From assembly GCF_964355755.1 (NCBI RefSeq), contig NC_092678.1, positions 22,027,365 to 22,091,364 of the forward strand: DNA of 64,000 nucleotides, written 5' to 3'. The stretch comes from Antedon mediterranea. Lineage: Eukaryota > Animalia > Echinodermata. Positions 27,701-55,600 of this stretch are shown here, piece after piece (the stretch's first letter is position 1; each line of letters starts with the position of its first letter). Both the position numbers and the translations under genes were made by a program. The notes below the pieces were generated by a model. It was not told the DNA's origin and ran no database searches. It saw nothing but the letters and a program-made list of their open reading frames with translations.

Positions 27701-27710
27701 TTGTAAATAA
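738..27710 (+). CDS. Wnt16: Wnt16, 4 exons: 738-841, 14907-15160, 17449-17735, 27246-27710 (369 aa)
   Basis: GT-AG junctions with consistent phases (1110 nt total). Signal-peptide-like N-terminus, then ASWMWLGVASVGV, GTKETAFVYAV, WRWGGCSDDV, CRCHGVSGSC, SPNYC, GADGCNLLCCGRGYNT and terminal DVHTCK. WMWLG-AS-GV, GADGCNLL and DVHTCK recall vertebrate WNT16. Confidence 0.93.
902..1285. mobile_element. Degenerate Tc1/mariner-type MITE
   Basis: Inverted ends AGTAGAACCCATCCTT...GGACACCCCTATTCAG and CTGAATAAGGGTGTCTCTAAGGATGGCTTCTACTG. Related fragments occur near 3205-3365 and 53220-53280. Confidence 0.6.
5215..6328 (+). repeat. 5' LTR (1114 bp)
   Basis: TGTAGG...CTGTACA. AATAAA at 6243-6248. Internal splice-like signals: GTAAGT 5398, TTTTAG ending 5880, GTGAGT 5976, TTTGTAG ending 6225. 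Confidence 0.97.
6365..11569 (+). CDS. BEL/Pao Gag-Pol polyprotein (1734 aa)
   Basis: Gag with YEGDP and three Zn knuckles (CWICKSDAHWPDEC, CFSC..H...C, C..C.HH.LLH). Protease MLDLGSQGTF, RT YMDD, RNase H FCDASEKAYG and KSRVAP, integrase GMDCWGP / SDCGTNF / WERE. This is the Belpaoviridae domain order. Confidence 0.97.
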   Translation: MATIDQLRINRRNRKGNLTRVINELSHLMERKASEAEISTAKAKAKTRFELVEESHDSLVEKINDEEEYETEQEWMNHCQDQFMTAMARFEVTRDEVIQENVSIDNESDDVLISNVTNNVSDSVPIENIPNVSVSDDVSNNVDNTSDSSGGATGVSNVDNTLVSLFKALTLPQTPIRQYEGDPLYYHAFITSFNNTVSGIPEDKVKLNTLMSLCAGKALQSIQYCVLKPPNEGYQSACKTLKDRYGNTAVIVQAWIGKVLDRPKIDASKLGDFADDLENCHEALLALGFLNELNNQSSLKQIIDKLPRFLQNRWQGANYKLKEKGVVPGLSDVVKFVKASAKEINDPVFGNTTNATAEVQQSRQKKHQVNNVNASVPSQSSAKEKFPKCWICKSDAHWPDECEKFSQMKVEDRFELAKSNHACFSCLKIAGRNHRLSNCSRKKVCGEKMGENNCNRYHHKLLHLTKKAGVGHVSVIGDKEPLLCVLDVEVIGKNGSHVANVMLDLGSQGTFVRTDFANKLGIGGKSVAAAITKVGGVEEIFESRLCEIKLQGMDSSVHNIKALEMLTINDVNSVNIKNLEKFFNMKNTLRRRGGPIDILIGVDHAYLMTGETKKTNGLVALKTPLGWAVFGGNQKDARFNQVMNVKVSKPVNLDNFWSVEAMGVDVGNCECKARLSAVEDMEGKLIEDSSSKVGNQWLIPYPWAKDPSQLPNNRGQAIKMLNGLEKRLKKNKEHGAAYQKQMEEMVKKGFSRKLNNTEMKLYQGPVHYLPHHAVVRAENKSTPVRIVFNSANRCQGGAINEYWMKGPDLLNNLSGVLMRFREREVAVCGDISKMYHRVLIPEMDQHVHRYLWRDLNSDRDPDTYVMQVLTFGDKPAAAMAQTALRLTAKEGEEMYPRAAHVLKNETYMDDICVSVTTIEEAKTLTKQMDAVLGNGGFNIKEWISNKPLNNEERKDKEQKVLGVSWNYADDTLKVKVKLDDDITNAVVTKRKALGMIAQVFDPIGFLAPVVVKLKIKMQELWKSGVNWDEDLPNETQQEWRILLKELNNASEIKLPRCLTPDNSTDAQLIIFCDASEKAYGACAYLRWRLQDGLFKTRFVTAKSRVAPLKKLTIPRLELQAAVMAARMGKSITDESSLPLTDVLFFTDSMIVLGWLKKPSCCYKQFVGTRVLEIQNKTKPENWRHVSGVENPADDVSRGIPVTNLNGRWIRGPPFLQSPMHEWEQENLRVEDDDSEIKLVKFTGNVEIKQVRPEVEIDNCETWEEMLEVYRRRIYGDDSPALDVYKVRDIELLLLRRVQRECFAEELQLLRNGKGVQSNSRICNLDPMLEAENEVIRVGGRLRNVEKIDLDVHPILLDPKHRITKLLIRRADANVFNHSAGPNQVFAYLRRKYWILKGRSQIKSELSKCIECQKWRKGPETPKMAELPEARLRIGKPPFFSTGMDCWGPMMVKVRRSQEKRWGLVFKCMTTKAVHLEILHNMNTDAFIMAFRRFVSRKGVPKELYSDCGTNFRGAERELHECFKAMSPALQEKLAQQQVEFKFNPPNAPHFGGVWEREVKSVKNAIKCSLKDRVVTEVVLQTVIVEVEGLMNSKPLGYASSNVSDADPVTPNVLLMGRRDPSLPFSLVSPQEIKSKKQWRHSQLIIDLFWKKFVSEYLPSQQIRQKWDKETENLKEGDQVLVVDNQAQRGDWLTGEVLKVHPSADGRVRVADVKMKEKVYKRPVVKLIKLEEWKH
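11772..12885 (+). repeat. 3' LTR (1114 bp)
   Basis: Same length as the 5' LTR with no differences found by eye. Preceded by the PPT and followed by the TSD ATGAC. Confidence 0.97.
18611..18762. mobile_element. PIF/Harbinger-type MITE, family A (TIR AGCTCTGTCTACACTATCAAACT)
   Basis: Terminal inverted repeats with internal CCCAAATATGGTAGTGATATG repeats. About 15 complete or partial copies in the window: ~5130/12950, 24297-24452, 29200-29345, 30934-31081, 31654-31765, 32820-32948, 36052-36170, 36379-36475, 38767-38930, 39107-39291, 43390-43505, 53040-53165, 53327-53504, 55585/56856, 58975-59105. Confidence 0.85.
18828..19838. mobile_element. Non-autonomous Kolobok-type DNA transposon (1011 bp)
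   Basis: Perfect 16-bp TIR AGGAAAGGAACACCCT/AGGGTGTTCCTTTCCT flanked by TTAA at 18824-18827 and 19839-19842. AG...CT termini with a TTAA TSD are characteristic of Kolobok. No transposase ORF. Confidence 0.85.
21940..22430. repeat. CTAG/TAGGCCTA-rich low-complexity tract
   Basis: Dense iteration of CTAG, TAGGC, GCCTA and CTACTA words. Confidence 0.7.
23620..24250 (+). repeat. About four degenerate 150-175 bp tandem units, probably inside a DNA transposon remnant
   Basis: Recurring ATATCTC...GTCATAGAGAGTT...AAATGTTCAGAA...TGACCGGAAGTA...CCTTTGACC. The TGACCGGAAGTA-like word occurs at ~23749, 23899, 24073 and 24225. Confidence 0.65.
25498..25655. mobile_element. PIF/Harbinger-type MITE, family B (TIR AG(G/C)TTGGTTCCCACTAG)
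   Basis: Near-palindromic element with a TAA TSD. Relatives at 28229-28385, ~29398-29510, ~60050-60196 and 60718-61195. Confidence 0.8.
26586..26760 (+). repeat. Tandem repeat, 4 x 43 bp
   Basis: Unit ATGTGATCATGAAATAGATAGACACGCATTATCTCAAATGTTA at 26586, 26629, 26675 and 26718. Confidence 0.95.
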
Positions 27711-30000: not shown

Positions 30001-34749
<4,749 letters not shown>

Positions 34750-38200: not shown

Positions 38201-41200
38201 TCGCAATAATATTGAAGCTCTAGATGTTTTGTGTTTTGGTAAGTAATACATTTTTTTGGATTGGCTAATTTTTTTTACAATAATTCTTTAAATTCATAAA
38301 AGATACACAATGAAATACCAGGTCATAGTGCAATCCAGAATACCAGGTCATAGTGCAATCCAGAATACCAGGTCATAGTGCAATCCAGAATACCAGGTCA
38401 TAGTGCAATCCAGAATACCAGGTCATAGTGCAATCCAGAATACCAGGTCATAGTGCAATCCAGAATACCAGGTCATAGTGCAATCCAGAATACCAGGTCA
38501 TAGTGCAATCCAGAATACCAGGTCATAGTGCAATCCAGAATACCAGGTCATAGTGCAATCCAGAATACCAGGTCATAGTGCAATCCAGAATACCAGGTCA
38601 TAGTGCAATCCAGAATACCAGGTCATAGTGCAATCCAGAATACCAGGTCATAGTGCAATCCAGAATACCAGGTCATAGTGCAATCCAGAATACCAGGTCA
38701 TAGTGCAATCCAGAATACCAGGTCATAGTGCAATCCAGAATAGAATTAGAATGTCAACAATCCTTAAGCTCTGTCTACACTATCAAAATAGTTTGAAAAA
38801 AAAAAGTATGATGTGGCAAAATATGGTAGTGGCATGCCCAAATATGGTACTAATATGACATTATCATGTCCATATATGGGCACATCACATTTTTTTTTGT
38901 CACATAAAATTTGATAGTGTAGACAGAGCTTGATATAACATGCATGGCTATAGTATTGTGGAATACTGTATATTACAGGTTCCTGATGTTCGTATATTAG
39001 AGGGATGTACTTGTATTATCATGTCCATATATGGGCACATCACATAAATAAGGGTGTCACCTAAATAGTACAAAGTTAGAACTGCTATTGCTAATAGGTC
39101 ACTAAATCTCTGTCTACACTATCAAACTAGTTTATAAAAAAAAGTTTGATGTGCCCAAATATGGTAGTGATATGCCCAAATATGGTAGTGATGTGCCCAA
39201 ATATGGTACTGATATGACATTATCATGTCCATATATATGGGCACATCACATTTTTTTTGGTCACATAAAATTTGATAGTGTAGAATGAGCTTGATATAAC
39301 ATGCATGGCTATAGTATTGTGGAATACTGTATATTACAGGTTCTTGATGTTTGTATATTAGAGGGATGTACTCCCTACTGGAATACAAAACAATTTTTAC
39401 TTTTGTAGGGCATCTACTTTTTGAGATGACGTGTGGTAGGGAATTAGACTCCGCACATCCAGACAGCGATGATTACGCTCAATGTAAACATCCAGAAGTA
39501 AAAGAGGTAATAATAATGATATTTTAGAAACACTTCCTCTATGTTTTTCCATCAAAAGTAAACAAACAAAATCAACAACATTTTTGGTTGAATTTGAAGG
39601 TAAAATGTGGAGTAATAAACTACTAAAGTTCATCGCAAATAGAGCGCGCGACGCATGATTGGAAGGGTTTGGGAGCAAACGTCATGACCTGTATGTACGT
39701 GATGGATTGTTTGTACGTACACGTCATGACGTTTGCTCTCAAACCTATACCATTATACACTGTGCCATGACGTTTCTCGCGAAATCAAGCTATTTGCGAT
39801 AAACCTTAAATAAGTAGATGGTATTTTAAAGGGTTATCTTATTAAAATAAAAGTTGATAAAATGTTATACTAGTTAGTATTTAAATACCAACGTGTGCTT
39901 TATCTAAATGTTATCTAGACTTCTTTTAGCCTACCAATAAATATGTAGGTACCAGCACATATCCACTACCATATTCTAAAGGATTATTGTCAGTAGAATA
40001 ATACCGTAAAATCTTCTAAAATTGTTTTTGTAATAGCTGTATAAACTAATGGTTTATTAATTCACAAGGATACATATTTCATATTTTACTATTAGTAATA
40101 TTAATAATAATTTATTTGGAAGCTACACTTTTGAAACAGTGGCACACTTATTGAATGAAGTGTCCATTCTGATTTATAAATATCTATAATACAGTAATTG
40201 TATCTGTACCACTGTATAGTTGAATTAAACAAAATTAAACATATAATTATATCAAAAGTTGCGTTTGTTCTGAAATACTGTAATGTTGAACTTTACTAAT
40301 TCATTTTTAAGGTTCTTGAGTTTATCTTCAACAAATCTAAAGAGTATCCTTCAATTGGAGAGGTCGCAGGTCACGACTTCTTCACATCGTGCAATCTGGT
40401 TGAATTGAAAACAAACCCACCACAACCAGTAAGTGTTTGAAACGTTTTGTATTAAACTATATTTTTTATTTATAGTGCAATTCTGGCATGCATGTATTTA
40501 TAGCAAATCATTGGCACAGTACCATATTTCATTTATATTCATGTCCAACAACGATCTATTCTAGGCCCTCATCTTTTAGAAAATAGTTTTTTATTGTATA
40601 ATATTATTGTTATTATATTTCAACATTTATGATATGTTTTTTTTTAATAGATAAAACTGTCTTCTGGAATGAAAAGCATAATGAAAGTAATCCATAAAAG
40701 CAAACTACCAAAGTAAGATATTTTTGTTTTCTGATTAAACAACTACTGTATATCCTCAGGTATAATCCCACTTCAGGTCTAATGCCACCCCCTACTATAG
40801 GTCTGATTTCATAAACGGGCATAATTCCGGGTATAGTCCCAGTATTGCCTTTTTACCTGGTTGTAGGACTCTTTCTAGCCAGTTCTGATGAGTTTTTACA
40901 AGAAATTCTTACCAATAATTTTTTTCCTGAACCAGACTATAAGGGTATTCTCCCACCCACCAAAGTCGGCCCAATTTTGTGTTTTTTTGAGGTGGGATTA
41001 TACGGTATATATTGATTTTTATATTGTGTTTAAATATTTTGTATCTGTGGTTTTTAGAATTAGTACAGAAAATGGGGAGAAGAAGCAAGTGAATGGAGAA
41101 AGCAAACGCCTACAAAGAGAAGCAAGCAAAACGAATGTGAAAGAGTCAAATCAAAACAAGTGAGTCACTCACAACTCTCTCCCCCTCCCCAGATTTATAC

Positions 41201-42131
41201 AGCGCACATATCCACTAAAATGCTCAAGGCGCTTGTGAAAAACCATGAAAACATATTAACCTTAAACCTAAATACAATTGATAAATTTGACAAAAACCAA
41301 AAAAAAATAAACAAGAACAATCGAACCCACATCACTGCTTCCGTTTACCAGCAATTTAAGGTGCATAGACCAGCCAGTACATAACTCACAGGTGTTCTCA
41401 GTGATGTGGGTATCTAGCTAAACAAATTGAATCTTAAAAATTTGAGTGAGTGAGTGGCCGAGCGGTTAAGACAGAGGAACCGTAATCACGTAGCCATAAC
41501 ATCGGCAGGGGTTCGAGGATCACTCACTCCATGGTTCTGGTGGTAGAACGAGTCTTCTCGGATAAGGACTAAACCGTAGGTCCAGTGTACACAACTTGCT
41601 CGTGTGCACTTTAAAGAACCTAGTACATCTTTCGAGACGAGTAGGGGGTTACCCCGGTGTATTAGTACATCACAGCCACTGATCACCAACTGGGCCCTCT
41701 GGGAGATCAGTCTTTGACTGAAGAGGTCTTCCAGTATAAAGATAAAACAAACAAACAAACAAACAAATTGCCAAAAGCAGCCGACTTTCTCCTCCCCTTT
41801 TTCTCTATTTCAAAATCCTTGATCCACCACTGGTTGCCAGCACACTATTATTAGTATAGTATTATACTATTGTAGATCAAAGAAGAAAGGAGACAGCGAA
41901 GGTAGAAAAAGGAAAACAAGTCGCACAACTACAGCCCCACAGATTCATGCTCCGCCACCACCACCTCCTCCTCCACCAGCACCACTAACAGCCCCTCCTC
42001 CTCCTCCAGCACCGCCAGTCAGTATTAAGCAGCCTTCAAGTGGGCCTAGAACTGCTCTACTGACTGACATCAGAAAAGGAATGAAATTAAAGAAGACCGA
42101 CACGTTTGATAAAAGTTCTCCAAAAGTTTGA
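35251..42131 (+). CDS. Slowpoke-binding protein (Slob)/PXK-like pseudokinase with N-terminal TM helix, polyproline and WH2. Exons: 35251-35268, 35685-35758, 36221-36321, 36595-36675, 36954-37108, 37590-37700, 37845-37940, 38046-38238, 39409-39506, 40312-40428, 40651-40712, 41058-41159, 41876-42131 (487 aa)
   Basis: IGSRLDRQWF, HPYIWPV, PFNSKGSLKDLI, YGRQILEAL, HLHSGNV and LDVLCFGHLLFEM match the PXK/Slob kinase-like domain. C-terminal PPPPPPP then RTALLTDIRKGMKLKKT (WH2). Phases are consistent. The first two exons are less certain. Confidence 0.85.
36379..36475. mobile_element. Short family A MITE
   Basis: Both TIRs present. TTA TSD at 36376-36378 and 36476-36478. Confidence 0.88.
38314..38742 (+). 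repeat. Perfect minisatellite, ~17 x 25 bp
   Basis: Unit AATACCAGGTCATAGTGCAATCCAG with no visible variants. Intronic. Confidence 0.97.
39623..39808. mobile_element. Palindromic MITE
   Basis: Ends AAAGTTCATCGCAAATAG / CTATTTGCGATAAACCTT, plus internal IR GAGCAAACGTCATGAC / GTCATGACGTTTGCTC. Confidence 0.65.
40745..41007. mobile_element. Tc1/mariner-like MITE remnant
   Basis: Inverted GTATAATCCCAC / GTGGGATTATAC near TACTGTA and TACGGTA termini. Confidence 0.5.
41444..41767 (+). mobile_element. tRNA-derived SINE with Deu/Nin-like central domain
   Basis: A box TGGCCGAGCGG and B box GGTTCGAGG. The core GGATAAGGACTAAACCGTAGGTCC...TTAAAGAACC...GAGTAGGGGGTTACCCCGGTGT resembles the DeuSINE domain. 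(AAAC)n tail. Confidence 0.85.
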
Positions 42132-42204
42132 TAGCAACAAAAAAAAAAACGTTTATCAAGAATGATCAATTGTATCGTTGTACTGAAAAATTGAACTGTA
42201 TTTA

Positions 42205-42620
42205 ACTTGAACAGTGGTCAATTATAATATTGTATTTGACAATGGTCAATGTTGTATTCAACAATGGTCAATTATAATACTGTATTCAGCAATGGTCAAT
42301 GTTGTATTCAACAATGTTTAATTATAATATTTGATTTGACAATTGTCAATTTATTGAACAATGGTCAATTATAATACTGTATTCAACAATGGTCAATATT
42401 GTATTCAGCAATGGTCAATGCTGTATTCAACAATGGTCAATTATAATAGTGTATTGTATTCAACAATGGTCAATTTATTCAACAATGGTCAATTTATTCA
42501 ACAATGGTCAATTTATTCAACAATGGTGCATTATAAATACTGTATTAAAAAATGGTCAATATTGTATCCAACAATGGTTAATTACAATATTTTATTCAAC
42601 AATGGTCAATTATAATATTG
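42205..42620 (+). repeat. Degenerate 19-30 bp satellite built on TATTCAACAATGGTCAAT
   Basis: More than 15 iterations just downstream of the Slob-like stop codon. Confidence 0.9.
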
Positions 42621-44181
42621 GTTGATTTAGGATTTTTTAAAATGTTAATTATAATGTTATATTCTCCAATGGAAGCACCATCTTTATCTGGGATTTTACC
42701 ATATCCACACGACTAGATGATTGACTGGGGGCACACTAAATGATACAGTGTTTATATTACATTTTAGCCAAGAATTATTGTAGATTTCTAAGTAACTTAA
42801 CTCAATTCAAAAACAAAGTGTTATTTTAAGCAAAATTGTATTATTTAAAGTATGTAAATAAATTCATATTCATTCTGTTGATTTATAAATATTAATAATG
42901 AAAATGAATACCCAGTGTGCTGGACGGTGCCTCGTACATTCAATGCAATCTTAAATTATTCATGGACAATTTGTTTTAAATGTACAGTATTTTAACTGTA
43001 TTATTTCTATGAAAAAAAAATTAAAATTATTTGTAATTGTTTAAAACATGTAACTATGTTGTATAAAACTTTATGTGATTAAATCATAGAATATATAATT
43101 GATGTAATATTTAAAGTGAATTTACTTTCACGATCTCAAATTTTAAAAGAATGGTTATAAAGGCGAGATTACTATTTGAGAAATAAAATTGTATTCGTAA
43201 AATTGTTATTTTCAATGTTTTATTATTGAACATGGTATTGTAATACAGAGTCAATATGTGCTCAACAATGTGTAATATTATATATGGCTTATTTTAATAT
43301 GATTCGTCGAAATAACACCACCTGACCATAAATACGATGGTTGGTTGACATAGCATACAAAATATATATATTGTAACATGTTTTGATACCTCCCTATGGA
43401 CATTATGCTGTCATATCACTAACATATTCGATTATATCCCTACCATATTTGGGCACATCACATTGATTTTGTTTCAAAGTAGTTTGATAGTGTGTAGACA
43501 GAGCTTTAGAGCATCCTAAATGTTATATTACACCTCCAAGCAGGCAATATTTGTATAATACTGACGTTTTCATTATATTCGGTTGAATGTTTGCATAAAT
43601 GTATTTAATCTGTCTCAGTTCTGTTAAATTTTTTTTTTTTTTTTTAATTTGGTTCTTATGTCTACTTTCTTGTTTTGGATTTATATTTAAGTGTGTATGT
43701 ATTATTTTTCACTGTAAACTTGTTGCACATCTCATTGAGACTGTGCCTCTGATTTAAAAGAGATACAATAAAAGTTCAGTTCAGTTCAGTTCAGATATTA
43801 CAAGATCATAATTAAATACTATATTGATTTCGATCCAATTCGGCTCTAAGTCTCTGCAAAACCCTATATTAACATGTTTGGTACTACAATTATTGAGAAA
43901 ATCTTTCCATAAAAAAAAAGATTGTTTTAAAAAAAATGTAAAGAAAACGCGATAGATAAAAATATAGTATTTCACTTCCAAAATCTAAGTACGTTTTTTG
44001 TATCATGATAGGGGGCGCTGTCTAGTTTCTTATTATCGATCGCCGTCTTTTTATTGACCTATCTACAGGCTAGGCCTCTATAGATTAGACAATAATGACA
44101 TGACAAATGTAGGAAAATGGTTGCCATTTAGGTCTAATTCTATCCTTTCCAGTGTACATTTGTTTCTTTAAAATTGTCAAT

Positions 44182-47100
44182 ATGAGTAAGTATGCAATTT
44201 TCTTTTTTTTAATGTGAAAAAATTGATTGATTGAAGAAGGAGGACACAGCTGTTCCAGAAATACAAATTAAGTGTAGCGCCCCCAACGTTCATATCGTTT
44301 TATGGAGTAGCGATTCCGAAAACATATTGTATACAAACCACACGAGGTACCCGGAAGCGATCAAGCATAAAACGACTGTATTTTAATAGCCAATAAAAAC
44401 AAATAAAAACCGCGAAAGCCAGAAAAATAATGAATATTCATTAGAACAACCCTGGATGAAGGTGAAAAAGATGTTGATGTCGTTTTATCACGTGGATTTT
44501 CAGAGGGAATCTAACTGAAAGTTAACCAACATTGTATACCCAACGCCAGTTTTTTTCTCAAGTGATACATTTAAAAAGTAGGTATAAATGTTTTTTTCCA
44601 TATCAGTTTAAAAATAATTTTTTCTGTTGAATTCTTTGATTTAGTTGGATACTTTAGTTATCCTTGAATGTTTTAACAAGGTTCGTATCCATATTGCCTG
44701 GCTGGATTTTTTCCTATGCTAGCTAGGCCCAGGCCCCTTGCGTGGTTAAAACCAGCTGTGTAAGACTAATGGCTGTGTATTTTTAACAGGTAAACATGTC
44801 TATTCTGGGGCCTGAGTGACAGTTTACAGCTGTTTCTAGTAGGCTAGCCTGGTCCTAATTAATAATGAGGCCTAGCCTAGGACCTAGCTAGGCCTAAGAT
44901 ATTTAAAAAATCATATTGGGAGGGGAGTTACACTACAGTAGGTCAGGCTACATGCCTATACTATATATAAAATATAGGCTACATCATCAGCAGGTTAAAG
45001 GCCTAGCAGCCTACCTAAACCTTCTTAGTCAAAGATAATTGTTCTCGGGGGTGTAATATATTAATAGAAAGAAGCTATAGAGTACTGTGACATTAGATAT
45101 TTAATTATAACAAATGTATATTTCTTTCATATTTGTATTGTATATTTATTATTAATACAGTATTTTGATATGCAATCAAAATCTGAATCAGTAAATTACA
45201 TCAATTTCCGTTATCAATCAATTAATATATTAAAACCACATTAATATAAAATAACATTCAAAAAATTCAATTACAATTCATATACCATTTGTTAATGTAT
45301 TTCCAAAACCATTGTTCTAGCAATAAAAAAAAACCACTACCATTCATACAGTATACTGTACATAATATACAATACTGTAACAATTAATTACAACAAATGT
45401 ATATTTCTTTCATATTTGTATTGTATATTTATTTATTCTTATTTTGATATGCAATCAAAATCTGAATCAGTAAATAACATCAATTTCCGTTATCAAATCA
45501 ATTTCTTAAAACCAAATTAAAATAAAAATAACTTCCAAAAAATTAAATTACAATTCATATACCATTTGTTAATATTTCCAAAATCATTGTTCTGGCAATA
45601 ACAAAAAAACCACTACCATTCATAATATGTACAATACTGTAACAATTAAGTGAGTGAGAAATAGCAAACTATTCCTCAACTTTTCTGCACTTGGGCCTAG
45701 TCACCTCATGCTGGATATCGGGTGAAATAAAAGTCAGATGTGACTTCATGATTGACATAAGCTGGTCAAGGTTGCTCTTTAATCCATATACCGCCCTTTT
45801 CCGGCGATTAAATTCTGAGTGGATTAATTCGCCGCCTTGCTCAGCTAAGAGTCCAACTCCTACTCTCCATTCTCTCATGAACGGTATTGTGTGGTGCTCC
45901 AACATGTGCAATTTTGGTTGAATCACATTTGGAGCGATGCGTCTGTATTCTTTGGAGAACAGTTGTATGTGGGTTTCTGTTTTGTGAAAAAAATTTTAAT
46001 ATTTTATTTGAAAGATGTATTGTCTTTTGAAATGACAAAAAATCATGAATTAAATTTTAATGTAACAAGAAAGTTTATAAATGAGAATTTAAATTATACA
46101 GATGTTTGAAGAAATTAATCACACATTAAGAATAAATAAAACCAGACAAAATTCACATAATTTGGTCATCAGTTTTTGCTTACCATATTGATCTATTTCT
46201 GAATCAGTGATGCGCCTCGTATGGTTTATGCATTCATGGACATTAGTAAAGGTTTTGAATACAGGTGTAAATGATTCCTGTATCTTGTGCAATTTTGTTT
46301 CAAGCAGTTGCTTACAGTTTGTAGGACAGTGATGTATCTGTTGCTTTAAAGTCATTGAGACACCATCCATGAGCTTTTCTATGATGTTGAACTAAAAATA
46401 AAATATATAGTTTAAAATAAAACGTTTACAGTATGGCGAGAGTCAATCGCAAATAATTCTTAATTTTATTACTTATTTTGCTGTGTAAAAATTAACGAAC
46501 TTCACATTTTAGAAATTTTAGTTACTCACTTTGCATGCTCTGTATACATGGTTTCCCACAAAACTCTTTCCGTGGTACTGCTGTCGAGGAATTTTATTCT
46601 TCCTCAACACCTCGTCCATTTTTGTACATAGAGGTCCAGTTCCAAATTTTATCTCTTGGTTCATAGTGCTTCGCTATATAAAATATAAAAGAAATATAGC
46701 ATTAATTTTTATAGTATTGTATATTTTAGACATAATTTTAAATTTTAAAGGTGTATACTGTAGTACTGACCAAGTCTTTGACCTCTTGTTCTTTCAGATT
46801 TATTCTGTGGCCAGTCTCTGCAATCTCTGCAATCTTGTTATGCTGTTTTGTCACAAGTGACACTGAGAGCTCGTTTCTTAAATCCTCAAGATTCTCTTCT
46901 AAAGACTGGATTTTAATCATTGTAGCATTTCGATGCGCTGCAGCTTCTGATATGCTTTTCTCAAAGTCTGCTAGATGATCACCTGAGATTAAACAATATT
47001 GGTCAATCAAATAAATTTCAATCTGCATCAAAAATGAGCATCAAAATTAGTATATTTAAAAAATGTTAATGATAATATGGATAATTCATAGAAAAATAAG

Positions 47101-50100
47101 TTTCAGCCAAAGGTTTGTTTATTATGCATAAAAACAGGATAAACAATTTCGAAATTTACTGAATTCTATGCTGAAAGGGACCATGTATATTTTAAAAGCA
47201 ACTTCACCAATTGAGTTTATTTAATGTCAATGTAAAGTTAAAACAACATTTGAAGTTACCAGTCAAGATGTCACCATCCTGTCGCATGTTAAAAATTATA
47301 ACATCAAGATTGTGCACGTCTTTTTCCAGCATATCATAGAGTTTCTTAAACAACCCAAGAGAAATGTGTAATGCTGGTATTGACACCTGGAAAAATAGTT
47401 GAGGAAATATTTAATAAAGAGGTATATTTATAAATTACTGTAACAATTGTTTGTTTTGACAGTTATTTTATACTAACATTGTTATTTAATATGGAAGTAC
47501 AAACACACATTTCATTGTTTGGAGTGTGTATTAAACTTTCTAAATTGAGATTTTAATTAATTTTGAATTTAACCTAACATAAACACTGGGGACCTGTGCT
47601 GTTATGATTATTTACCTACCCTGTTTAATTCGATGTGTACCAGGTATGGCCTAACAACGCTGTGCGATATTGTTTTGCTTTTTTTTTTGTCACTCCCATG
47701 GTCTACAAAAGACTTGTAGTCACGATTGTAGGTCTTGAGACATCTACAGGCTTGAGGAACATTGTTGGTTCTAATGTCATCTTGATTACAAAAACAATAG
47801 ATGCAACTGTACTTTCCTTTAAAAAAATCAATTTTTAAATCTACATAATATATATAGTACTTCAGTTTTGTGTAACAAATGCCAAACAATGAGAGCTAAT
47901 AGCCAAAATATAAAAAAAAAATTGTATTGAAACTGGAAATTGTACTTACCATTTGGGCCAACAAGTCCATATACCTTTGACAAAAAATCATAATCCCCAA
48001 AAAAGAATAGGCGGATATTGTGAGTTCTGTAAAATGAGAAGTTATTTTCATTCAATTACCATGAATTCTAATTAATTACATTAATCATAATTAAAGATAT
48101 ACAAATTATGTAACATTTTCAAATTAAGTTGCATATTATAATTATGTAGCTCTGCTATATACTTAAGTCAGTGTTACTCATTCCAATATTATACTACTGT
48201 ATTTAATATTACTTTTTGGTCTTTGGTGAGGTCCACTGGTTTCCATCTAAATCCATGACTTCATCAAGAACCAGTTTCAAGCCTTTTTCGACATTAACTA
48301 TAAAATCTGGTGCTTGGAATGCCAAAATGACAATAATATTGTGCAGTGCATTGGGTTTAGGTAAACTGCAAATTTGAACTTCAAATTTAGTGGTATCACC
48401 ACCCTTGTCTCCTCCAAACTTGAGAAATATGTCTCCATCTTTGAAGAAGTTCAATTCATCAGACCTACAAAATTTAAAATTGCTTGTTACAAAATTAAAT
48501 ATAATTTAAGTCTTCCCTGACTAGATTTGTAATTATTTTATTCTTATATTTATACCACATGCAATCTATTATAGTATATATAATTTGTGCCAATAATACA
48601 GTACTGATGTATGAAATAGGTTTGTTTAAAAATAACAACAAAAAATGTTACATACATATCATATTTGTTTAGGTAGTCATAGATTAGTTCTTTGATTTTG
48701 GTTAGTCGGACTACTGCAACCTCTTCCAAAACAAGACCTCCTATAGATGTGGCTCCATCTCGTTTGACAAACATGTATTCCATAGAATCTACTATGTGAT
48801 CACCGATAATCTGTTCTTGGCAAATGCGCATTTGCCTTTCAGAAGCCAAAACTCCTGGGCAAAATCTATATTAAAAAAAAAAATGTATATACAGTACTGA
48901 TTAATTATAGTTTTTATAGTTTTCTATAGTATTCTAAATTCAATTAAAAAAAAAGTAAACTGTTGACTGAATAATAGTAAACAGTGGCTGTGTGGCCCGA
49001 CGGAGGTCCACATACCCGACACGAAAAGCAATAATAAAATAAATTACCTCCGCAGTGCTCGTTGCTGGCTCCAATTTATGCGGCAGGCATTCATGATTGC
49101 CAAACATCTTTGGGGGTCCATTTTCTCTTCAGTACTGGTAACACTAACAGTTGTTGTGCACTCTGATTGTTTAACAATGTTGATTGGCTGAATTTGATCA
49201 AATAAAATATTTGTATGATTTATCAAATAATAATGTATAATGAGTGAATCAAGAGTGTAGGCCTACATTATGATAAATTTAAATTAATTGTAATGGGTTA
49301 AAAAACTCACCCGTCCTCGAGTCATAAGTGACACTTTCTTATTATTCATAAGGTCTTTCCGTACTATGTTGTGTGCCATGCTTTTCAATTCTTTTGGCCA
49401 AACCTCATTTGTTTGGGCAGTACATGTAATTTCTTCAACTGCACTTAAAATTTTGGTGAATGCCTGTTCTTTAAACGTTTTGCAAACATGATTGGGGGTT
49501 TCTGACCAAACTAATTGAATTTTACATTGTTTGCATTGCAAAGGGACTCGTTTAAGCGATTGTTCTACAATAAGTGGAACTGGTTTGAGATCTTTGTTAC
49601 TGACAATTTGGCTGCAGTTAAAACAATCAATTGATTCTCGTCCTACTGCCTTAAACAATTTGTTTATGCAAAATGTACAAAAAAAATGTTGACAAGGCGT
49701 CTGCTGGCTGTCAATTGACAACAAATTATTGCATATCTGACATTCATACACTTGATTATCGTAATTTTCAAAAATTTTAAATTGAGGATTTAGTAGCAAG
49801 TGCTCATGAGTGGGAATAAAACTGCCAGTAGTATTGCTTCTGTTTTCGGGAAACTTGCATTTCTTCAGCCTTCGACCAGGTCTTGATTGTTGACTGAATA
49901 AGTAGCAGGCTAAGCATTTGTCTCCATGGTCTTTGAAATTAAATGGTGTTATGTTGTGTCCACCAAGTGCGCTAACGTGACAGCTTCCACATAGCCACTT
50001 AAGATTTGGATCCAAATTATATTCATAAGTGTACTTTACATCTTTTATTTTAAATTTTTTTCCGCAACAGTAGCAAAGGGAACTCAATGCCCTTTCGTGA

Positions 50101-53100
50101 AACTCCATTACTGTATATGAAATAAAATATAAAAAATTTTAAATAAAAATAGCTCCGCAGCTTATCTGTGAAATATATTTGTAATTGTATGTGTAATTTT
50201 TATAAAGGCCTATAATAGTAGTATAGTTACAGTAATGACTGTCACTCAGTCACACCAGCTAGCCTAAAAATGCACCAGAAAAGCAATAATTATTATTATA
50301 AACACATGCCATTAATTATTTGATAACAGTTATAATGATTAAATTTAGGATTAGGATAATTAAAGGTTTTACTACTACGAATTTTCTATGTTTGGGCCTA
50401 GCTTCATCCTAGGCCCACATTACTGTCAAGTTTATCGCCGGCTTCAACGCACTTTCTAAGCCTATCGCCAAACAGTTTTCTCGCCGATAACAATAACAAC
50501 GTATAAAGGGGTTGCAAAATATGCGAGTTTTACTAAAAACTGAACCAGGCTATATTAACATAACTTGTATTATTTTATTTATATAATAATGATGGCCTAT
50601 ATTCTAGTTCGTTCTTTTTCTAAAAAAATGAATTATATCCAAAAAATAAGTTAGGAATACAATGATATTTTCTACTTACGATTGTTTACTATTTCATTAC
50701 ACAGTTTCTATCGACTTCCTGGTTTATGTGTGGGAGATTATTTCAGTAAAATGGACAATATCGTCGTTTATTTATTAATTTATATTAAAGAAACAATAAA
50801 ATATTGATTTTTTAATTGAACATAAACTTTTTTAATCGTTTGGTTTTATATAAAATGTGTTTTCTACATAAAAACTAACGGTAGCAAAATTTAATTTGGC
50901 GTTCGCGAAATAATGGTTTGTGTACAAAATTCATAAGTTCGCGCGGATCGGAGAGCGTCGTCTGCTAACACTGAGGGCGCTTTACTTTTTCTGATATCTT
51001 AACACTAGTTGAAACAGCTGTGAGGACGACTCTATCGACCGACGACGGCCGGAGAGCCCTACTGAACTAGTGAAGGTTAAGGTTAGGCCTAGCTCTAGAA
51101 GCATTTTTTTTTTTCATGATAAAAGTTTCTAAATTTCGAAGAAAACATGGAGTCAAGTATATTATTAAGAAGACAAACTGTGAAATAATAGTATTTTTAT
51201 TATTCTAGCTAGGCCAAGTTACTGACAGGTATATACTATTTATAGGCCAGCCTGTCAGTGTTATTAAATTAAAAAGTTAAAATTCTCTCTTTCGTTTTTG
51301 TATGTAGGTTGGGGACGCCTATACCAACGGTTCATTTGTGTATGCATCATATCAATTTTACTGTGCTTTTTCATCGTTTACCAGCTACAACCTAATCCGT
51401 CAGCAAACAGGTATTCTACAGTAAATTTATTTTATCCAAGTCATGTCGTGTAAGTAAAGTGCCATTTTTGAAGATATTGAAGTTTTAAATTCTTTCTGAT
51501 TTCTCTTTATTTTAGCAGTAACAAAGGAGAAGTGGATTCGTTACTTATACGTGAAATAGAGTACGACAGACCTCCGAAAGAAGACGTAAAAGAATACGAT
51601 AGACCACCGAAAGAAGATGTCGCAGAATATGATAGACCTCCGAAAGAAGACGTCGTAGAATACGATAAACCACCGAAAGAAGATGTCGTGGAACACGATA
51701 AACCACCGAAAGAGGACGTCAATATCACCAGTAATCGGTCCAATCGAGAAAAACCCATTAAAAATAAACCAGAGCTTCTAAGACCTCAACAGTTTGGGAA
51801 AATGGTTCACTTTGCTACCAACGATTCAATGTTTGATTTCAGGACAAAAATAGATTTTAAACCAACAGTAAGAAAGTTTTTAGTTGATAAACAAAACATA
51901 CAAAAATCATTATGACCAGTAGTAATATGTTTAATATTTTTTCCCCCAGACTTGTCCAAATTCCATCCAGAAAAAACTGCAACAAAGTAAATGGGCATCA
52001 GAGATGTTCCTGCCAAATATCACCATGGCGATGCATGAGGGCGCCATGTCTGAAGAGGAGTATAATCGACTGCATGCGTTCGGTATGCCGTTTGGGCTTA
52101 GCTTCCGAGATGACTTATTATACTCAGGTAAATGATGACAAATAGGAGATATATTGTATATTAATATAAAGGCAAATTACTGACAAAAATGACAATGCTG
52201 TCGGTATCAGTGGCTGGATCTCAATGTAGATACAAAATAAAATAAGCAAAAAGCTAAATCAAAACGATAAAGTAAATGAGCCAGAAAAATTAGCGTTTAT
52301 ATATTTATATATAAATATAAATCCAAAGGCAAATTACTGAAAAAAATGACAATGCTGTGGGTATCAGATATATATATATGTATATAAATATATAAACGTA
52401 TCATATCTAAACGTATCAGGCACAGAAACAATTCTAAACCTCCCAGTGATATACTGAAATTTAACTAATTCATTTGAAACGATAAGATGAAGAAATCTGT
52501 GAGAATGAGAAAAATCGCCCCAACCGAGACTATATTTATATATGATACTTACTGTATGCTCAAAATGAGGGTGATTTTCCTTTGTAGAAAAGCCTATTTG
52601 ACCGTGATTGGTTGGTTTCATCTTCCGATCATCTGTAAATTATTAAATGAAAACATTTAACTGTGCTCCATTCCTTAGTTCTAATATGGGTCCAAGATAT
52701 AAATAGAATCTGGGACAGATGGTGTCAATCCAAGATTTTTTCTACAGTATTTTAAAAAGCTTTTTCTTCTGCAGATTTACAAGCAATCCTATCAAAGCTA
52801 CCTCGTGTGGACAGTATATTAGACTTTTCTGGTAAAGAGAGACCATCATGCCTCAGCTGTGCCGTTGTAGGGAATGGCGGCATTCTGAACGGATCTAAGC
52901 TTGGCAAAGAAATAGACGAACATGATCTTGTCTTCCGGTAATTTTATATTCCTCATATAATATTTGTAAAAATACTATTGTTGTTTTATAATGTATGTTT
53001 ACTATACAAATGAACCAATTTATATGTGTTTTCTGAATAGTGGTTGGCCAAACTTTATGTGACAAAAAAATGGACATAATGATGTCAAATCACTGCCATA

Positions 53101-54516
53101 TTTGAGCAAATTACTACCATATTTGGGCACATTTGTCAAAGTAGTTTCATAGTGTAGACAGAGCTTTAAAACATAATATTGTCCTTGTGTTCTTTTTACA
53201 GGAATATTTCCCTTTTATACAGTAGCTGTCCCTGAATAGGAGGTTCCTCTGAATATGGTTGACCCCTAAATAGGGGTGTCACCTAAATATTACAAAGTTA
53301 GAACTGCTATTGCTAATAGGTCACTAAATCTCTGTCTACACTATCAAACTAGTTTGATAAAAAAAGTTTGATGTGACCAAATATGGTAGTGATATGCCCA
53401 AATATGGTAGTGATGTGCCCAAATACGGTAGTGATATGACATCATCATGTCCATATATGGGCACATCACATGTTTTGTCGTATAAAGTTTGATAGTGTAG
53501 AGCTTAAGATTACCATTTTTTATTTTCGTCGTTTTAAGGGTGAACCACGCCATCCGCAGGGGATTTGAGGAAGATGTCGGAACAAAGACAACACATTATG
53601 TAATGATGGACAGATCATTAGCCCACACCAGTAAAGAAGATGTCCCACGAGATAAGGTAGGTATCTATCTTCAATGGCAGCTATCAAAACCATTATGAAT
53701 ATTCTCACAATTTTTGAATGGCTATAAAATTGTTTTAATGACCAGTTATAGGCATCTTGTGAAATACAAAACATGAATAAAATAGTTCAATATAGGATTA
53801 CATAATAATATGTTTTTGTTTTTAAGGGAATCAAATACGTCTTTTTACCGTGCCGAAGGAAAGACTATAACTATATTAACACTGTTATTGGACCACCGGA
53901 CCCAAAACGACAACTGGTTGCAGATGCCAAAGATTTGAGAATTCTCCACCCTGATTTTGTTCGTTACATCCATAGAGTGTAAGTAGGCTACAAGAGGAGG
54001 ACGAAATGCTACATCTCTCTTTTTTTTATAATTTTATTAATTATTATAAAACATATAATTTTATTTTTTGCTTAATTTTTAACTTGAGATTGGCAATGGT
54101 GTTCACTTTTCGTTAAATATCGTTTATTTCAATATTTTTTCATAATAATTCTAAGAAGTTTCAACTTAAAAAATAAAAATGATACAATTTAATTCAAGAA
54201 TAGCCAAATTGTCAGAGGAGAGGCTTGCTATATTGATATTTTTTTGTCCTCTAGTTGGATGAAAGTGCGTGCCTTTCGACCAACGACCGGTGGCATGATG
54301 TTTATGTCGGCACTGCATGCTGGATGCGATTCGCTGGACGTATACGGTATGGGATACACTAGACAGTACTCGGATCATTACTACGACTTGACCTACATTC
54401 CATTTAAGGCATTCCTTGGTAGCCATGACTACAGACGAGAGATTAAACTTATGAAAATGTTAGATGATGATGGTATAATTAATTGGTATAAGCGAGACGT
54501 CAAGGAGTTTTTGTAA
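44182..54516 (+). CDS. GT29 sialyltransferase, ST6GalNAc I/II-like, copy A. Exons: 44182-44185, 51308-51410, 51516-51867, 51950-52127, 52775-52937, 53539-53656, 53827-53978, 54255-54516 (443 aa)
   Basis: Type II TM anchor. Sialylmotif [30 protein letters not shown]...[10 protein letters not shown], motif S RPTTGG...CD...VYG, motif III HYYD, motif VS HDYRRE. The ATGA|GTAAGT first coding exon is mirrored in copy B. Confidence 0.88.
45102..45649. repeat. Tandem duplication of ~283 bp downstream of the transposase stop
   Basis: 45102-45384 is repeated with scattered differences at 45385-45649. Confidence 0.85.
45669..50108 (-). CDS. Chapaev transposase with RAG1-like N-terminal Zn fingers and RING, 11 exons: 50108-49311, 49187-49048, 48865-48656, 48464-48213, 48026-47950, 47816-47620, 47386-47260, 46982-46771, 46673-46530, 46391-46184, 45976-45669 (890 aa)
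   Basis: 2673 nt, phases consistent, no stops. N-terminal [54 protein letters not shown], finger CKQC..HVC. Core motifs KFGGDKGG (D), FGDYDFL (D), [48 protein letters not shown] (E). Confidence 0.88.
51559..51720 (+). repeat. Coding 33-bp repeat x5 ([11 protein letters not shown]) in the sialyltransferase A stem
   Basis: Visible in ORF 51532-51915. Absent from copy B. Confidence 0.92.
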
Positions 54517-54524
54517 GAACACCA

Positions 54525-54766
54525 ATGGCGTACTACTGGTACCGTACTACTGGTGCTGTACCACTGGTACCTTATCACTGGTACTGTACCACTGGTGCCA
54601 AACAACTGTTACTGTACCACTGGTGCCGAACAACTGGTGCCATACCACTGGTGCCATACCACTGGTGCCATACCACTGGTGTCTTACCACTGGTGCCGTA
54701 CAACTGTTACCGTACCACTGGTACCGCACCACTGGTGTCTTACCACTGTTACCGTACCACTGGTGC
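54525..54766 (+). repeat. ~14-bp degenerate satellite (TACCACTGGTGCCA) after the copy A stop codon
   Basis: About 17 iterations of YACCACTGGT/YACAACTGTT. Confidence 0.9.
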
Positions 54767-55600
54767 TAGTAAAGCTATTTTTATCACATCTGCACAACTC
54801 CCCATGACAATTACCCTTTGTCTAGGTGTTATGGTTCGATTCATGGTTAGGGTAGGTTTTAGTGGGTTCTTGTACTAAAGGTTTTTGCAGTAGAAAAGTT
54901 CTCCTTGCATAGTAATTGTCTGGGGTAGTCTTTTTAATAATTTTCTATATTTTATAACCTTTTTTTTTAATTATGCAACACATTTTAGTTTAATGTTTTG
55001 TACTTAATGAATTTAAATGGCAATAACAAACCTGTGCCCATCCTGATAGAGTGATATAATGATGTGTACAGCAACATTTTATGGAAATAACTGCAAAAAT
55101 AGTAGAATTGTAGTAATAACATGTACTTAAGTCACAAAGTTTGTGGGTCTTTAAGGAAATACTGACAATTTGTCGGCAATTTTTTTTTTGCGTCGCAAAA
55201 CATAGCTGGAAATTTGAATATGCATAAATCAAAGCTTTTGATTGGCTGTGAATAATAACCTATAGTATAGTTCTAGTCTTCTATATAAATTCAGAGAAAT
55301 TGTTGACCATACCTTGACATTTACTTGTATGTAAAAATCATTGATGTAAACTATATATTTAGAGTACAAAGTAAAATTCATCAATGAAAATATTTATTTT
55401 ATTATATCGTAATAAAACTCTGAAAATTATTTGGTTGATGTTTGATTTTTTAAATATTTTACTAACCACCCACCTGCTTTATTTAAATGACTTTGGATGT
55501 TTAAAAATGTTTAAAAATCATTTTGTTTTATCAGAGACAAAACAAACAAAAATCTAAAATACAGTTAGATTTGTTAATTGTATAAAGCTCTGTCTACACT

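What the first reader, a model, noticed from the sequence alone, without database searches (positions are those of the whole stretch)
45669..50108. Intact 11-exon, 890-aa transposase combining a RAG1-type N-terminus and RING with a full DDE core
Seen: ten GT-AG introns splice into one open frame that the ORF track shows only as fragments. The N-terminus follows the order of RAG1's non-core region: H..L..LC..CG, C..C, H...C..C, a basic patch, a C3HC4 RING and a following finger. The core has motifs positionally equivalent to the RAG1/Transib catalytic D, D, CxxC, LH..LG, GN, H....H and E, plus a coiled-coil insertion in exon 8. With intact TIRs and TSD it is a candidate active element and a usable model for the origin of RAG1's ubiquitin-ligase region.
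Basis: partly seen in the sequence, partly recalled or inferred. Interest (0 to 1): 0.7.

Follow-up and report, generated by a model that had tools for sequence, protein, structure and literature searches.

The report
Intact feather-star Chapaev transposon, asymmetric ends
This is an intact, spliced and likely still mobile jumping gene of a feather star, from the known Chapaev family of distant cousins of the antibody-gene recombinase RAG1, and its two ends, like those of several relatives, carry a shared inner motif offset by one DNA turn, which would echo the 12/23 rule of antibody gene assembly.

Summary
Eleven exons with ten GT-AG introns give an 890-aa frame identical to RefSeq XP_071961268.1 of the crinoid Antedon mediterranea; an RNA-like run bridges 6 of 10 introns. 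The gene lies in a 6,778-bp element (44245-51022) with 13-bp CAC termini and a 4-bp target duplication, inside intron 1 of a sialyltransferase gene. A public run holds the exact empty site, and near-identical copies are annotated on three contigs. The predicted core superimposes on RAG1 (Z 26.9) at only 15% identity. A RAG1-type N-terminus with RING, a distant core, a 4-bp duplication and no RAG2-like gene mark it as a RING-bearing Chapaev transposon, an architecture published in 2015, not a RAG1-like element. Three extras: it lacks about 50 residues equivalent to RAG1's nonamer-binding domain; its N-terminal zinc domain is about 20 residues shorter; and its ends share an inner block offset by 10 bp. 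Five of seven relatives with both ends found carry a conserved motif at positions 20-21 and 31-32, close to RSS nonamer positions; two literature searches found no report of this for Chapaev. Activity and the function of the asymmetry are untested.

The parts
44245..51022 (-). Whole Chapaev-type element, 6,778 bp
   Evidence: TIR/TSD search; empty-site joint skipping 6,782 bases in run X1
44241..44244 (.). 4-bp target site duplication, left copy
51023..51026 (.). 4-bp target site duplication, right copy
44245..44257 (+). Terminal inverted repeat at the element's 3' end (13 bp, starts CAC)
51010..51022 (-). Terminal inverted repeat at the element's 5' end (13 bp, one mismatch to the other)
44270..44290 (+). 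Inner shared block, positions 26-46 from the 3' end
   Evidence: best match between the ends, 2 of 1000 shuffles reach the score
50967..50987 (-). Inner shared block, positions 36-56 from the 5' end (10-bp offset)
   Evidence: related element in runs X6 and X10 keeps this block and the TIR with a different spacer of similar length
49311..50108 (-). Exon 1 (aa 1-266): shortened Chapa-type zinc domain (aa 4-68), basic patch, C3HC4 RING (123-165), C2HC finger (192-209)
49048..49187 (-). Exon 2: remnant of the nonamer-binding-domain-equivalent region (about 50 aa shorter than in relatives) and start of the core
48656..48865 (-). Exon 3
48213..48464 (-). Exon 4: first catalytic Asp (D402, codon 48409-48407), DUF1280 match
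47950..48026 (-). Exon 5: second catalytic Asp (D478, codon 47995-47993)
47620..47816 (-). Exon 6: CxxC (C497, C500)
47260..47386 (-). Exon 7: LH motif, first long helix
46771..46982 (-). Exon 8: coiled-coil insertion (family-wide)
46530..46673 (-). Exon 9: GN motif
46184..46391 (-). Exon 10
45669..45976 (-). Exon 11: H812/H817, catalytic Glu E838 (codon 45830-45828), stop
45101..45649 (.). Tandem duplication of about 280 bp (85% identical) in the 3' arm, each unit with an AATAAA on the coding strand; shorter relatives lack one unit
   Evidence: joint skipping 267 bases
44182..44185 (+). Host sialyltransferase gene: start codon and donor site just before the insertion
   Evidence: joint 44185 to 51308, GT..AG, in run X5; frame check
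51308..51410 (+). Host sialyltransferase gene: next exon (hydrophobic membrane-anchor-like stretch)
   Evidence: Glyco_transf_29 match further on at 52756-52938

Best explanation
This is an intact, autonomous-type Chapaev DNA transposon (RING-bearing subgroup) that sits in intron 1 of a crinoid sialyltransferase gene and is likely still able to move by cut and paste. Shown: the gene, its ends, the 4-bp duplication, an empty site, partial splicing and several near-identical copies. Inferred from RAG1 and Transib: the transposase would act as a dimer without a RAG2 partner, bind the terminal CAC-led 13 bp at each end, cut with D402/D478/E838 by nick and hairpin, and insert with a 4-bp stagger; it would also move the more abundant deleted derivatives. 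The N-terminal zinc domain, RING and C2HC finger likely serve dimerisation and self-regulation (E3 activity untested). In relatives that keep the nonamer-binding-domain equivalent, an inner motif at 20-21 and 31-32 bp would be its binding site; this lineage has lost those helices and that motif, yet keeps a different inner block at a 10-bp offset, which would be read by another part of the protein or by a host factor.
For: Open 890-aa frame equal to RefSeq model. CAC termini and 4-bp TSD, the stated Chapaev hallmarks (PMC4079192). 8 of 10 related loci checked also have a 4-bp TSD. Empty site in run X1; flanks are unique in the window. Five cluster members on three contigs, 0-5 residue differences. 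D402, D478, C497, C500, H565, H812, H817, E838 invariant in 14 aligned proteins. Model pLDDT 87; core aligns with RAG1 459-1008 at Z 26.9, rmsd 3.8, 465 residues, 15% identity; HzTransib Z 24.0; amphioxus RAG1L Z 24.6. Family profile: RAG1 102-402 at E 1.2e-29, core pieces 0-4 bits. Pfam over 66 members: DUF1280 57, RAG1_imp_bd 14, no RAG1 core family listed. Chapa+RING in Chapaev subgroups is in print, and the RING region resembles Chapaev-2_BF in that paper's alignment (pattern drawn by eye).
Against: No tree with named Repbase Chapaev sequences could be built; none of the fetched proteins matched short motifs of named Chapaevs. P0005 itself does not hit RAG1_imp_bd and its zinc domain lacks the HP motif and about 20 residues. 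In run X5 introns 1 and 5 are unspliced in the listed contigs and intron 8 is not bridged, so a full-length mRNA is not shown. Some annotated copies are partial proteins, one with a 3-residue deletion. TSD length is labile in Transib relatives (preprint), so 4 bp alone does not classify. The loss of the nonamer-binding-domain equivalent could lower activity.
Confidence: 0.86

Rival explanations
1. It is a RAG1-like (RAG1L / 'TransibVDJ') element, a close stand-in for the ancestor of RAG1 with RING and core in one chain.
For: Domain order equals RAG1's; best solved matches of both RING part and core are RAG1; GRP motif kept at aa 265-267; ends offset by 10 bp as in RAGL-A.
Against: Core identity 12-16% against >30% stated for TransibSU versus RAG1; core below threshold in a profile search; 4-bp not 5-bp TSD; no RAG2-like frame in the 1,424-bp and 914-bp arms (longest stop-free frames 74 and 50 aa); no CCGHC tail in the sequence. 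RAG1, RAG1L and Transib score within 3 Z units of each other, so fold does not favour RAG1 specifically.
Confidence: 0.05
2. It is a recently spread but now silenced or defective Chapaev: the frame is open only because the copy is young, and incomplete splicing plus loss of the DNA-binding segment leave it unable to move.
For: Introns 1 and 5 unspliced in X5 contigs; about 50 aa missing; other annotated copies are partial.
Against: The same shortened segment is present in the 48%-identical Anneissia protein P0011, so it is an old lineage trait; the empty site and near-identical copies point to recent movement; a Transib transposase whose solved chain aligns from the same point onward is a known active enzyme (alignment start; activity).
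Confidence: 0.2
3. The inner blocks at the ends are host-factor sites or leftovers of internal duplication, and the 10-bp offset has no role in pairing the two ends.
For: In this element the block differs from the relatives' motif, lies further in, and resembles the CTCF core motif (recalled, not tested); the same 7-mer occurs at 2 other places in the window, one just outside the element at 44013. 2 of 7 relatives lack the motif at one or both ends; one has the long spacer on the opposite end.
Against: Three lineages with 41-50% protein identity and little or no alignable DNA between them keep the motif at 20-21 and 31-32 while spacers differ (background 110 of 6,489 windows); a related element in two other organisms keeps TIR and block with a different spacer 1 bp shorter (one contig each).
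Confidence: 0.4
4. It is a domesticated host gene that only looks like a transposon.
For: Ten introns and a RefSeq gene model.
Against: Intact TIRs and TSD, an empty allele, several near-identical copies, position antisense inside another gene's intron.
Confidence: 0.02

Closest known systems
RING-bearing Chapaev transposons (Chapaev-1/2_BF, -1/2_NV, -4/6/7_HM; Kapitonov and Koonin 2015, PMC4411706)
   Same: Chapa-type zinc domain, RING, following finger and a DDE core only distantly related to RAG1; CAC termini; 3-4-bp TSD; single gene.
   Different: Zinc domain about 20 aa shorter (24 residues between the first two CxxC against 36-50 in 15 relatives); segment equivalent to the nonamer-binding domain 41 aa against 81-93; one-turn end asymmetry not found in the papers searched; an intact polymorphic copy rather than a consensus.
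RAG1 / RAG1L (ProtoRAG, RAGL-A, TransibSU)
   Same: Domain order, core fold (Z 24-27), RING+finger fold (1rmd, Z 11.8, rmsd 4.7, 109 residues, tied with LNX2 and TRAF6), GRP motif; RAGL-A ends have a 10-bp spacer asymmetry.
   Different: 12-16% core identity, 4-bp instead of 5-bp TSD, no RAG2L, no nonamer-binding domain, no CCGHC tail, long coiled-coil insertion, inner motif not A-rich.
Transib (HzTransib; Transib5, Transib2_AG)
   Same: Core fold (Z 24.0, rmsd 3.9, 410 residues), single-gene element, CAC termini; some Transibs have 12/23-like ends (PMC1131882).
   Different: Canonical Transib has no N-terminal zinc domain or RING and a 5-bp TSD.
Chapaev3
   Same: CAC termini, short TIRs, C(2)C / LH / H(4)H motifs.
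   Different: Chapaev3 has a 3-bp TWA TSD and no RING.

Membership tests
Chapaev (RING-bearing) | Termini 5'-CAC ... GTG-3' | tested here: met
   hallmark as stated in PMC4079192
Chapaev (RING-bearing) | 3-4-bp TSD | tested here: met
   4 bp, confirmed by empty-site joint
Chapaev (RING-bearing) | DDE triad with C(2)C, LH, H(4)H motifs | tested here: met
Chapaev (RING-bearing) | N-terminal Chapa zinc domain | tested here: inconclusive
   Eight candidate ligands in type I order (H4, C12, C15, C40, C43, H61, C65, C68) and aligned with relatives that hit RAG1_imp_bd (14 of 66), but P0005 itself does not hit, lacks the HP motif, and the fold searches were filled by the RING
Chapaev (RING-bearing) | RING finger after the Chapa domain | tested here: met
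   PF00097 above cut-off; fold match
Chapaev (RING-bearing) | Core only distantly related to RAG1/Transib | tested here: met
   10-16% identity in fold alignments; sub-threshold profile score
Chapaev (RING-bearing) | Phylogenetic grouping with named Repbase Chapaev transposases | not testable with these tools
   No named Chapaev sequence was available as a tool result
RAG1L / TransibSU / ProtoRAG | RAG1 core fold | tested here: met
RAG1L / TransibSU / ProtoRAG | Core >30% identical to RAG1 over about 600 aa | tested here: not met
   14-16%; phmmer core piece below 0 bits
RAG1L / TransibSU / ProtoRAG | 5-bp TSD | tested here: not met
   4 bp
RAG1L / TransibSU / ProtoRAG | RAG2-like gene inside the TIRs | tested here: not met
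   arms of 1,424 and 914 bp with longest stop-free frames of 74 and 50 aa
RAG1L / TransibSU / ProtoRAG | Nonamer-binding domain (NBD or NBD*) | tested here: not met
   only the GRP motif and about 20 low-confidence residues precede the point that aligns with RAG1 residue 459
Transib (canonical) | No domains besides the core; 5-bp TSD | tested here: not met
   RING and zinc domains present; 4-bp TSD
RSS-like bipartite asymmetric ends | Terminal block, variable spacer, second conserved block, spacers differing by about one helical turn | tested here: met
   offset 10 in this element; 5 of 7 relatives
RSS-like bipartite asymmetric ends | Asymmetric pair required for cleavage or transposition | not testable with these tools
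   needs a biochemical or cell assay

The most novel reading that the evidence does not exclude
RING-bearing Chapaev transposons pair a short-spacer end with a long-spacer end, as RAG does under the 12/23 rule, so the one-turn asymmetry is older than the split of Chapaev from Transib/RAG; and this crinoid lineage is an active element that kept the asymmetry after losing the domain that enforces it in RAG, offering a one-protein system with RAG1's zinc domain and RING in which to test how asymmetry is read.
Probability: 0.35. Interest if true: 0.72.

Novelty: new variant of a known kind. Interest (0 to 1): 0.46.

Why it matters
Chapaev biology was called largely uncharacterised in 2014 (PMC4079192) and a 2026 preprint links its N-terminal domain to RAG1's only by structure prediction. 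An intact, polymorphic copy gives a natural substrate and protein for a first activity test. If the 10-bp end asymmetry is functional in Chapaev, the geometry behind the 12/23 rule goes back further than the Transib and RAGL cases now in print. The protein architecture itself is not new.

Tried and rejected
No whole genome was held for this window, so copies were counted only from annotated proteins. Generic repeat finders missed the short TIR; it was found by eye and then tested. The long inverted pairs at 43395/53389 and 41527/58394 belong to other repeats. The run search listed no holder on record as RNA; X5 is a guess, supported by its splice joints. Contig depth (interior about 1,450, flanks about 250-320, ends 13,000-44,000 in X1) is not a copy number and is used only as a hint of multi-copy deleted derivatives. 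Fold searches with the exon-1 model did not list RAG1's N-terminal zinc domain; the RING filled the lists, so this is no evidence either way. The last homolog search with a profile returned only 2 proteins. A paralogous source for the empty site was looked for in the window only and not found. Of 80 fetched loci, 39, 67 and 48 were screened for ends; 11 loci in 7 families gave both ends; the rest were too short or gave no convincing pair. Three look-ups in earlier findings returned nothing. Yuan and Wessler 2011 was not held. No complex prediction was run.
Full report
1. Observation. The gene is on the minus strand. Eleven exons joined at ten GT..AG introns give 2,673 nt and 890 aa with a single terminal stop. 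A search with exon 1 found one protein, labelled Antedon mediterranea (a crinoid) by NCBI. Its cluster has 5 members on three contigs of 40.9, 39.0 and 26.1 Mb. One member, P0005 (XP_071961268.1), is identical to my model at all 890 residues; the other four are partial, with 1-5 differences, one with a 3-residue deletion. Whether the RefSeq model rests on transcripts is not known from these tools. In run X5, which the tool guesses to be RNA, contigs bridge 6 of the 10 introns (2, 3, 4, 7, 9, 10) at the predicted sites; intron 6 has only loose ends of 11 and 16 letters that fit the junction; intron 8 is not bridged; listed contigs run unspliced through introns 1 and 5. So the model is largely supported, but a complete message is not shown.

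2. The element. The ends are at 44245 and 51022 (6,778 bp): a 13-bp inverted repeat starting CAC, one mismatch, flanked by a 4-bp duplication. Only one CAC-led 10-mer pair with a 4- or 5-bp duplication exists in the flanking 5.7 and 5.9 kb, and 2 of 300 first-order Markov shuffles gave any. Run X1 has a joint that skips 6,782 bases, the element plus one duplication; the flanks have no second copy in the window. The insertion is therefore absent from at least one chromosome copy in that sample. Run X5 has a GT..AG joint from 44185 to 51308 that removes the whole element and gives an open frame for the start of a membrane-anchored protein whose later exon matches the sialyltransferase family. 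The element thus lies antisense in that gene's first coding intron, 59 bp after the donor site. The arms hold no long frame (74 and 50 aa at most). Joints with internal deletions and much higher depth at the ends suggest deleted derivatives; depth is not a copy number.

3. The protein. Pfam finds a C3HC4 RING (aa 123-165) and DUF1280. A HMMER search with the first 467 residues gave 268 proteins at E <= 0.001 (150 listed); full-length relatives are 28-32% identical over the core. D402, D478, C497, C500, H565, G711, N712, H812, H817, E834 and E838 are invariant in 14 aligned proteins. D478 and E838 align with the RAG1 stretches that hold the second and third catalytic residues; the chain carrying the E-to-Q change shows Q opposite E838's position (the D600/D708/E962 numbering is recalled, and D402 is assigned by conservation and position at the end of a strand). 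The AlphaFold2 model (66-sequence alignment, pLDDT 87) aligns over residues 286-885 with RAG1 459-1008 (Z 26.9, rmsd 3.8, 465 residues, 15% identity), amphioxus RAG1L (Z 24.6) and HzTransib (Z 24.0). The RING plus finger matches RAG1's dimerisation domain (Z 11.8), tied with LNX2 and TRAF6. The family profile matches RAG1 102-402 at E 1.2e-29 while the core pieces score 0-4 bits; 14 of 66 members hit Pfam's RAG1 N-terminal family and no RAG1 core family is listed. That split, N-terminus close and core distant, is what is described for Chapaev.

4. What is known. [quoted passage not shown] Zhang et al. 2014 (PMC4079192; passages) give the hallmarks: 3-4-bp TSD, CAC...GTG termini, C(2)C, LH and H(4)H motifs. 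[quoted passage not shown] Amphioxus RAG1L has the ring dimerisation domain (PMC7204232; passages). Another preprint warns that TSD length varies among Transib relatives (10.64898/2026.08.26.747230; passages). Chapaev3 has a 3-bp TWA duplication (PMC3014272; passages).

5. What differs. (a) Between the GRP motif and the first core helix this protein has 41 residues, against 81-93 in the 11 relatives of the 14-row alignment that cover the region (2 rows start later). A profile of that segment hits all 7 related elements with paired ends, but only its last 27 positions weakly hit P0005. The gap is inside exon 2, not at an intron, and the 48%-identical Anneissia protein shares it. This segment aligns, weakly, with RAG1's nonamer-binding domain. 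(b) The N-terminal zinc domain has 24 residues between its first two CxxC pairs against 36-50 in the 15 relatives where the pattern was found. (c) The ends share an inner 21-bp block (16 of 21 identical) at positions 26-46 of one end and 36-56 of the other; 2 of 1000 shuffles reach that score. In runs X6 and X10 (organisms B and C; one contig each) a related element follows the window up to 50989, then has a different spacer, and the 30 letters shown end in the TIR short of its last two bases; the loose piece in X6 is 32 letters against 33 here.

6. Relatives' ends. A scan of metagenome contigs gave 80 loci. Eleven loci in 7 families showed both ends; 8 of the 10 checked have a 4-bp duplication. 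A motif CA(C/T)TTA(G/A) lies at positions 21 and 31 in L019, L024 and L071, at 20 and 32 in L061, and at 31 and 21 (reversed) in L007: 5 of 7. L032 has it at one end only and L058 at neither; the window's element lacks it. Background is 110 of 6,489 60-bp windows. The three lineages involved are 41-50% identical in protein with little or no alignable DNA between them. An unguided offset test gave a best offset of 10-12 in 5 of 8 elements (one by tie-break; a sixth tied between 9 and 10 was not counted) against a shuffle mean of 0.94, 0 of 1000 reaching 5. Limits: the 10-12 range and the motif were chosen after seeing the data, the families are related, and only 2 of 8 are significant alone. 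RSS nonamers start at 20 and 31 (7+12+1 and 7+23+1). Asymmetric ends are in print for some Transibs (PMC1131882, PMC8355894, PMC9435367; passages) and RAGL-A (10.1101/2023.08.20.553239; passages); the last three do not contain the word Chapaev. Searches for Chapaev+nonamer+spacer, Chapaev+asymmetric+TIRs and Chapaev+4-bp+TIR returned 0 papers; the library lacks most subscription journals and Repbase Reports, so this is weak evidence of novelty.

7. Mechanism. Shown: gene, ends, duplication, empty site, partial splicing, copies, fold. Inferred from RAG1/Transib knowledge: dimeric cut-and-paste with hairpins on the flanks, no RAG2 partner, 4-bp stagger at insertion, mobilisation of deleted copies. 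More speculative: in relatives the nonamer-binding-domain equivalent reads the 21/31 motif and favours unlike ends; in this lineage both were lost together and a different block at the same one-turn offset is read by another domain or a host protein. The host-factor reading remains open (the block resembles the CTCF core from memory; the 7-mer occurs 4 times in 64 kb, twice in the ends). Retention of intron 1 would give a 274-aa product with only the zinc domains and RING, which might act as a brake; this rests on one run of contigs.

8. Verdict. Real, intact and probably recently mobile; a new variant of the known RING-bearing Chapaev kind, not a RAG1-like element. Interest 0.46, carried by the testable end asymmetry and the availability of an intact copy rather than by the domain architecture.

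Noticed in passing
window 5212-12887: Full-length BEL/Pao LTR retrotransposon: about 1.1-kb LTRs 99.9% identical, 5-bp duplication, 1,753-aa stop-free frame with Pao peptidase, RT and DUF1759/DUF5641 matches; it appears to sit inside a copy of the local MITE-like repeat.
   Followed up: partly
window 44182-55600 and about 58800-61800 (+): Two tandem sialyltransferase (Glyco_transf_29) genes; one exon pair is 98.8% identical (52773-52942 and 59785-59954) while others are 70-83%, suggesting gene conversion.
   Followed up: partly
window 51558-51722 (+): 33-bp coding tandem repeat (five units of 11 aa) in the stem region of the first sialyltransferase; public runs show a joint that goes back 43 bases here, so unit number may vary.
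   Followed up: no
window 14836-15207 and 27246-27707 (+): Exons of a Wnt gene (Pfam wnt).
   Followed up: no
window 31128-34286 (-): Exons of a metallopeptidase M24 gene, probably methionine aminopeptidase 2 (Pfam match; name recalled).
   Followed up: no
window 18610, 24298, 29207, 30930, 36379, 38763, 39045, 43395, 53049-53501 and others: Abundant MITE-like repeat family with inverted arms and 21-bp internal repeats, more than ten copies in the window.
   Followed up: no
window 55600-56540; 38314-38742; 42200-42670; 54498-54808: Satellite arrays: 85-bp palindromic units, 50-bp identical units, AT-rich 19-28-bp units, 14-bp units.
   Followed up: no
window 41527-41763 and 58146-58394: Inverted pair of about 250 bp, 75% identical, probably two copies of a dispersed repeat.
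   Followed up: no
P0027, P0029, P0174 (proteins): The same species has at least two other RING-bearing Chapaev-like families (951 and 975 aa) that keep the nonamer-binding-domain-equivalent segment; natural controls for the end comparison.
   Followed up: partly
L061:3636-8309, L065:3636-8313, L067:3636-8313, L064:3636-11665: One related family with four copies showing identical ends and four different 4-bp duplications in one assembly; a likely recently active element with the 20/32 end motif.
   Followed up: partly
window 49188-49310 and 47817-47949: Introns 1 and 5 are unspliced in contigs of run X5 whose neighbouring introns are spliced; possible splicing control, one run only.
   Followed up: partly
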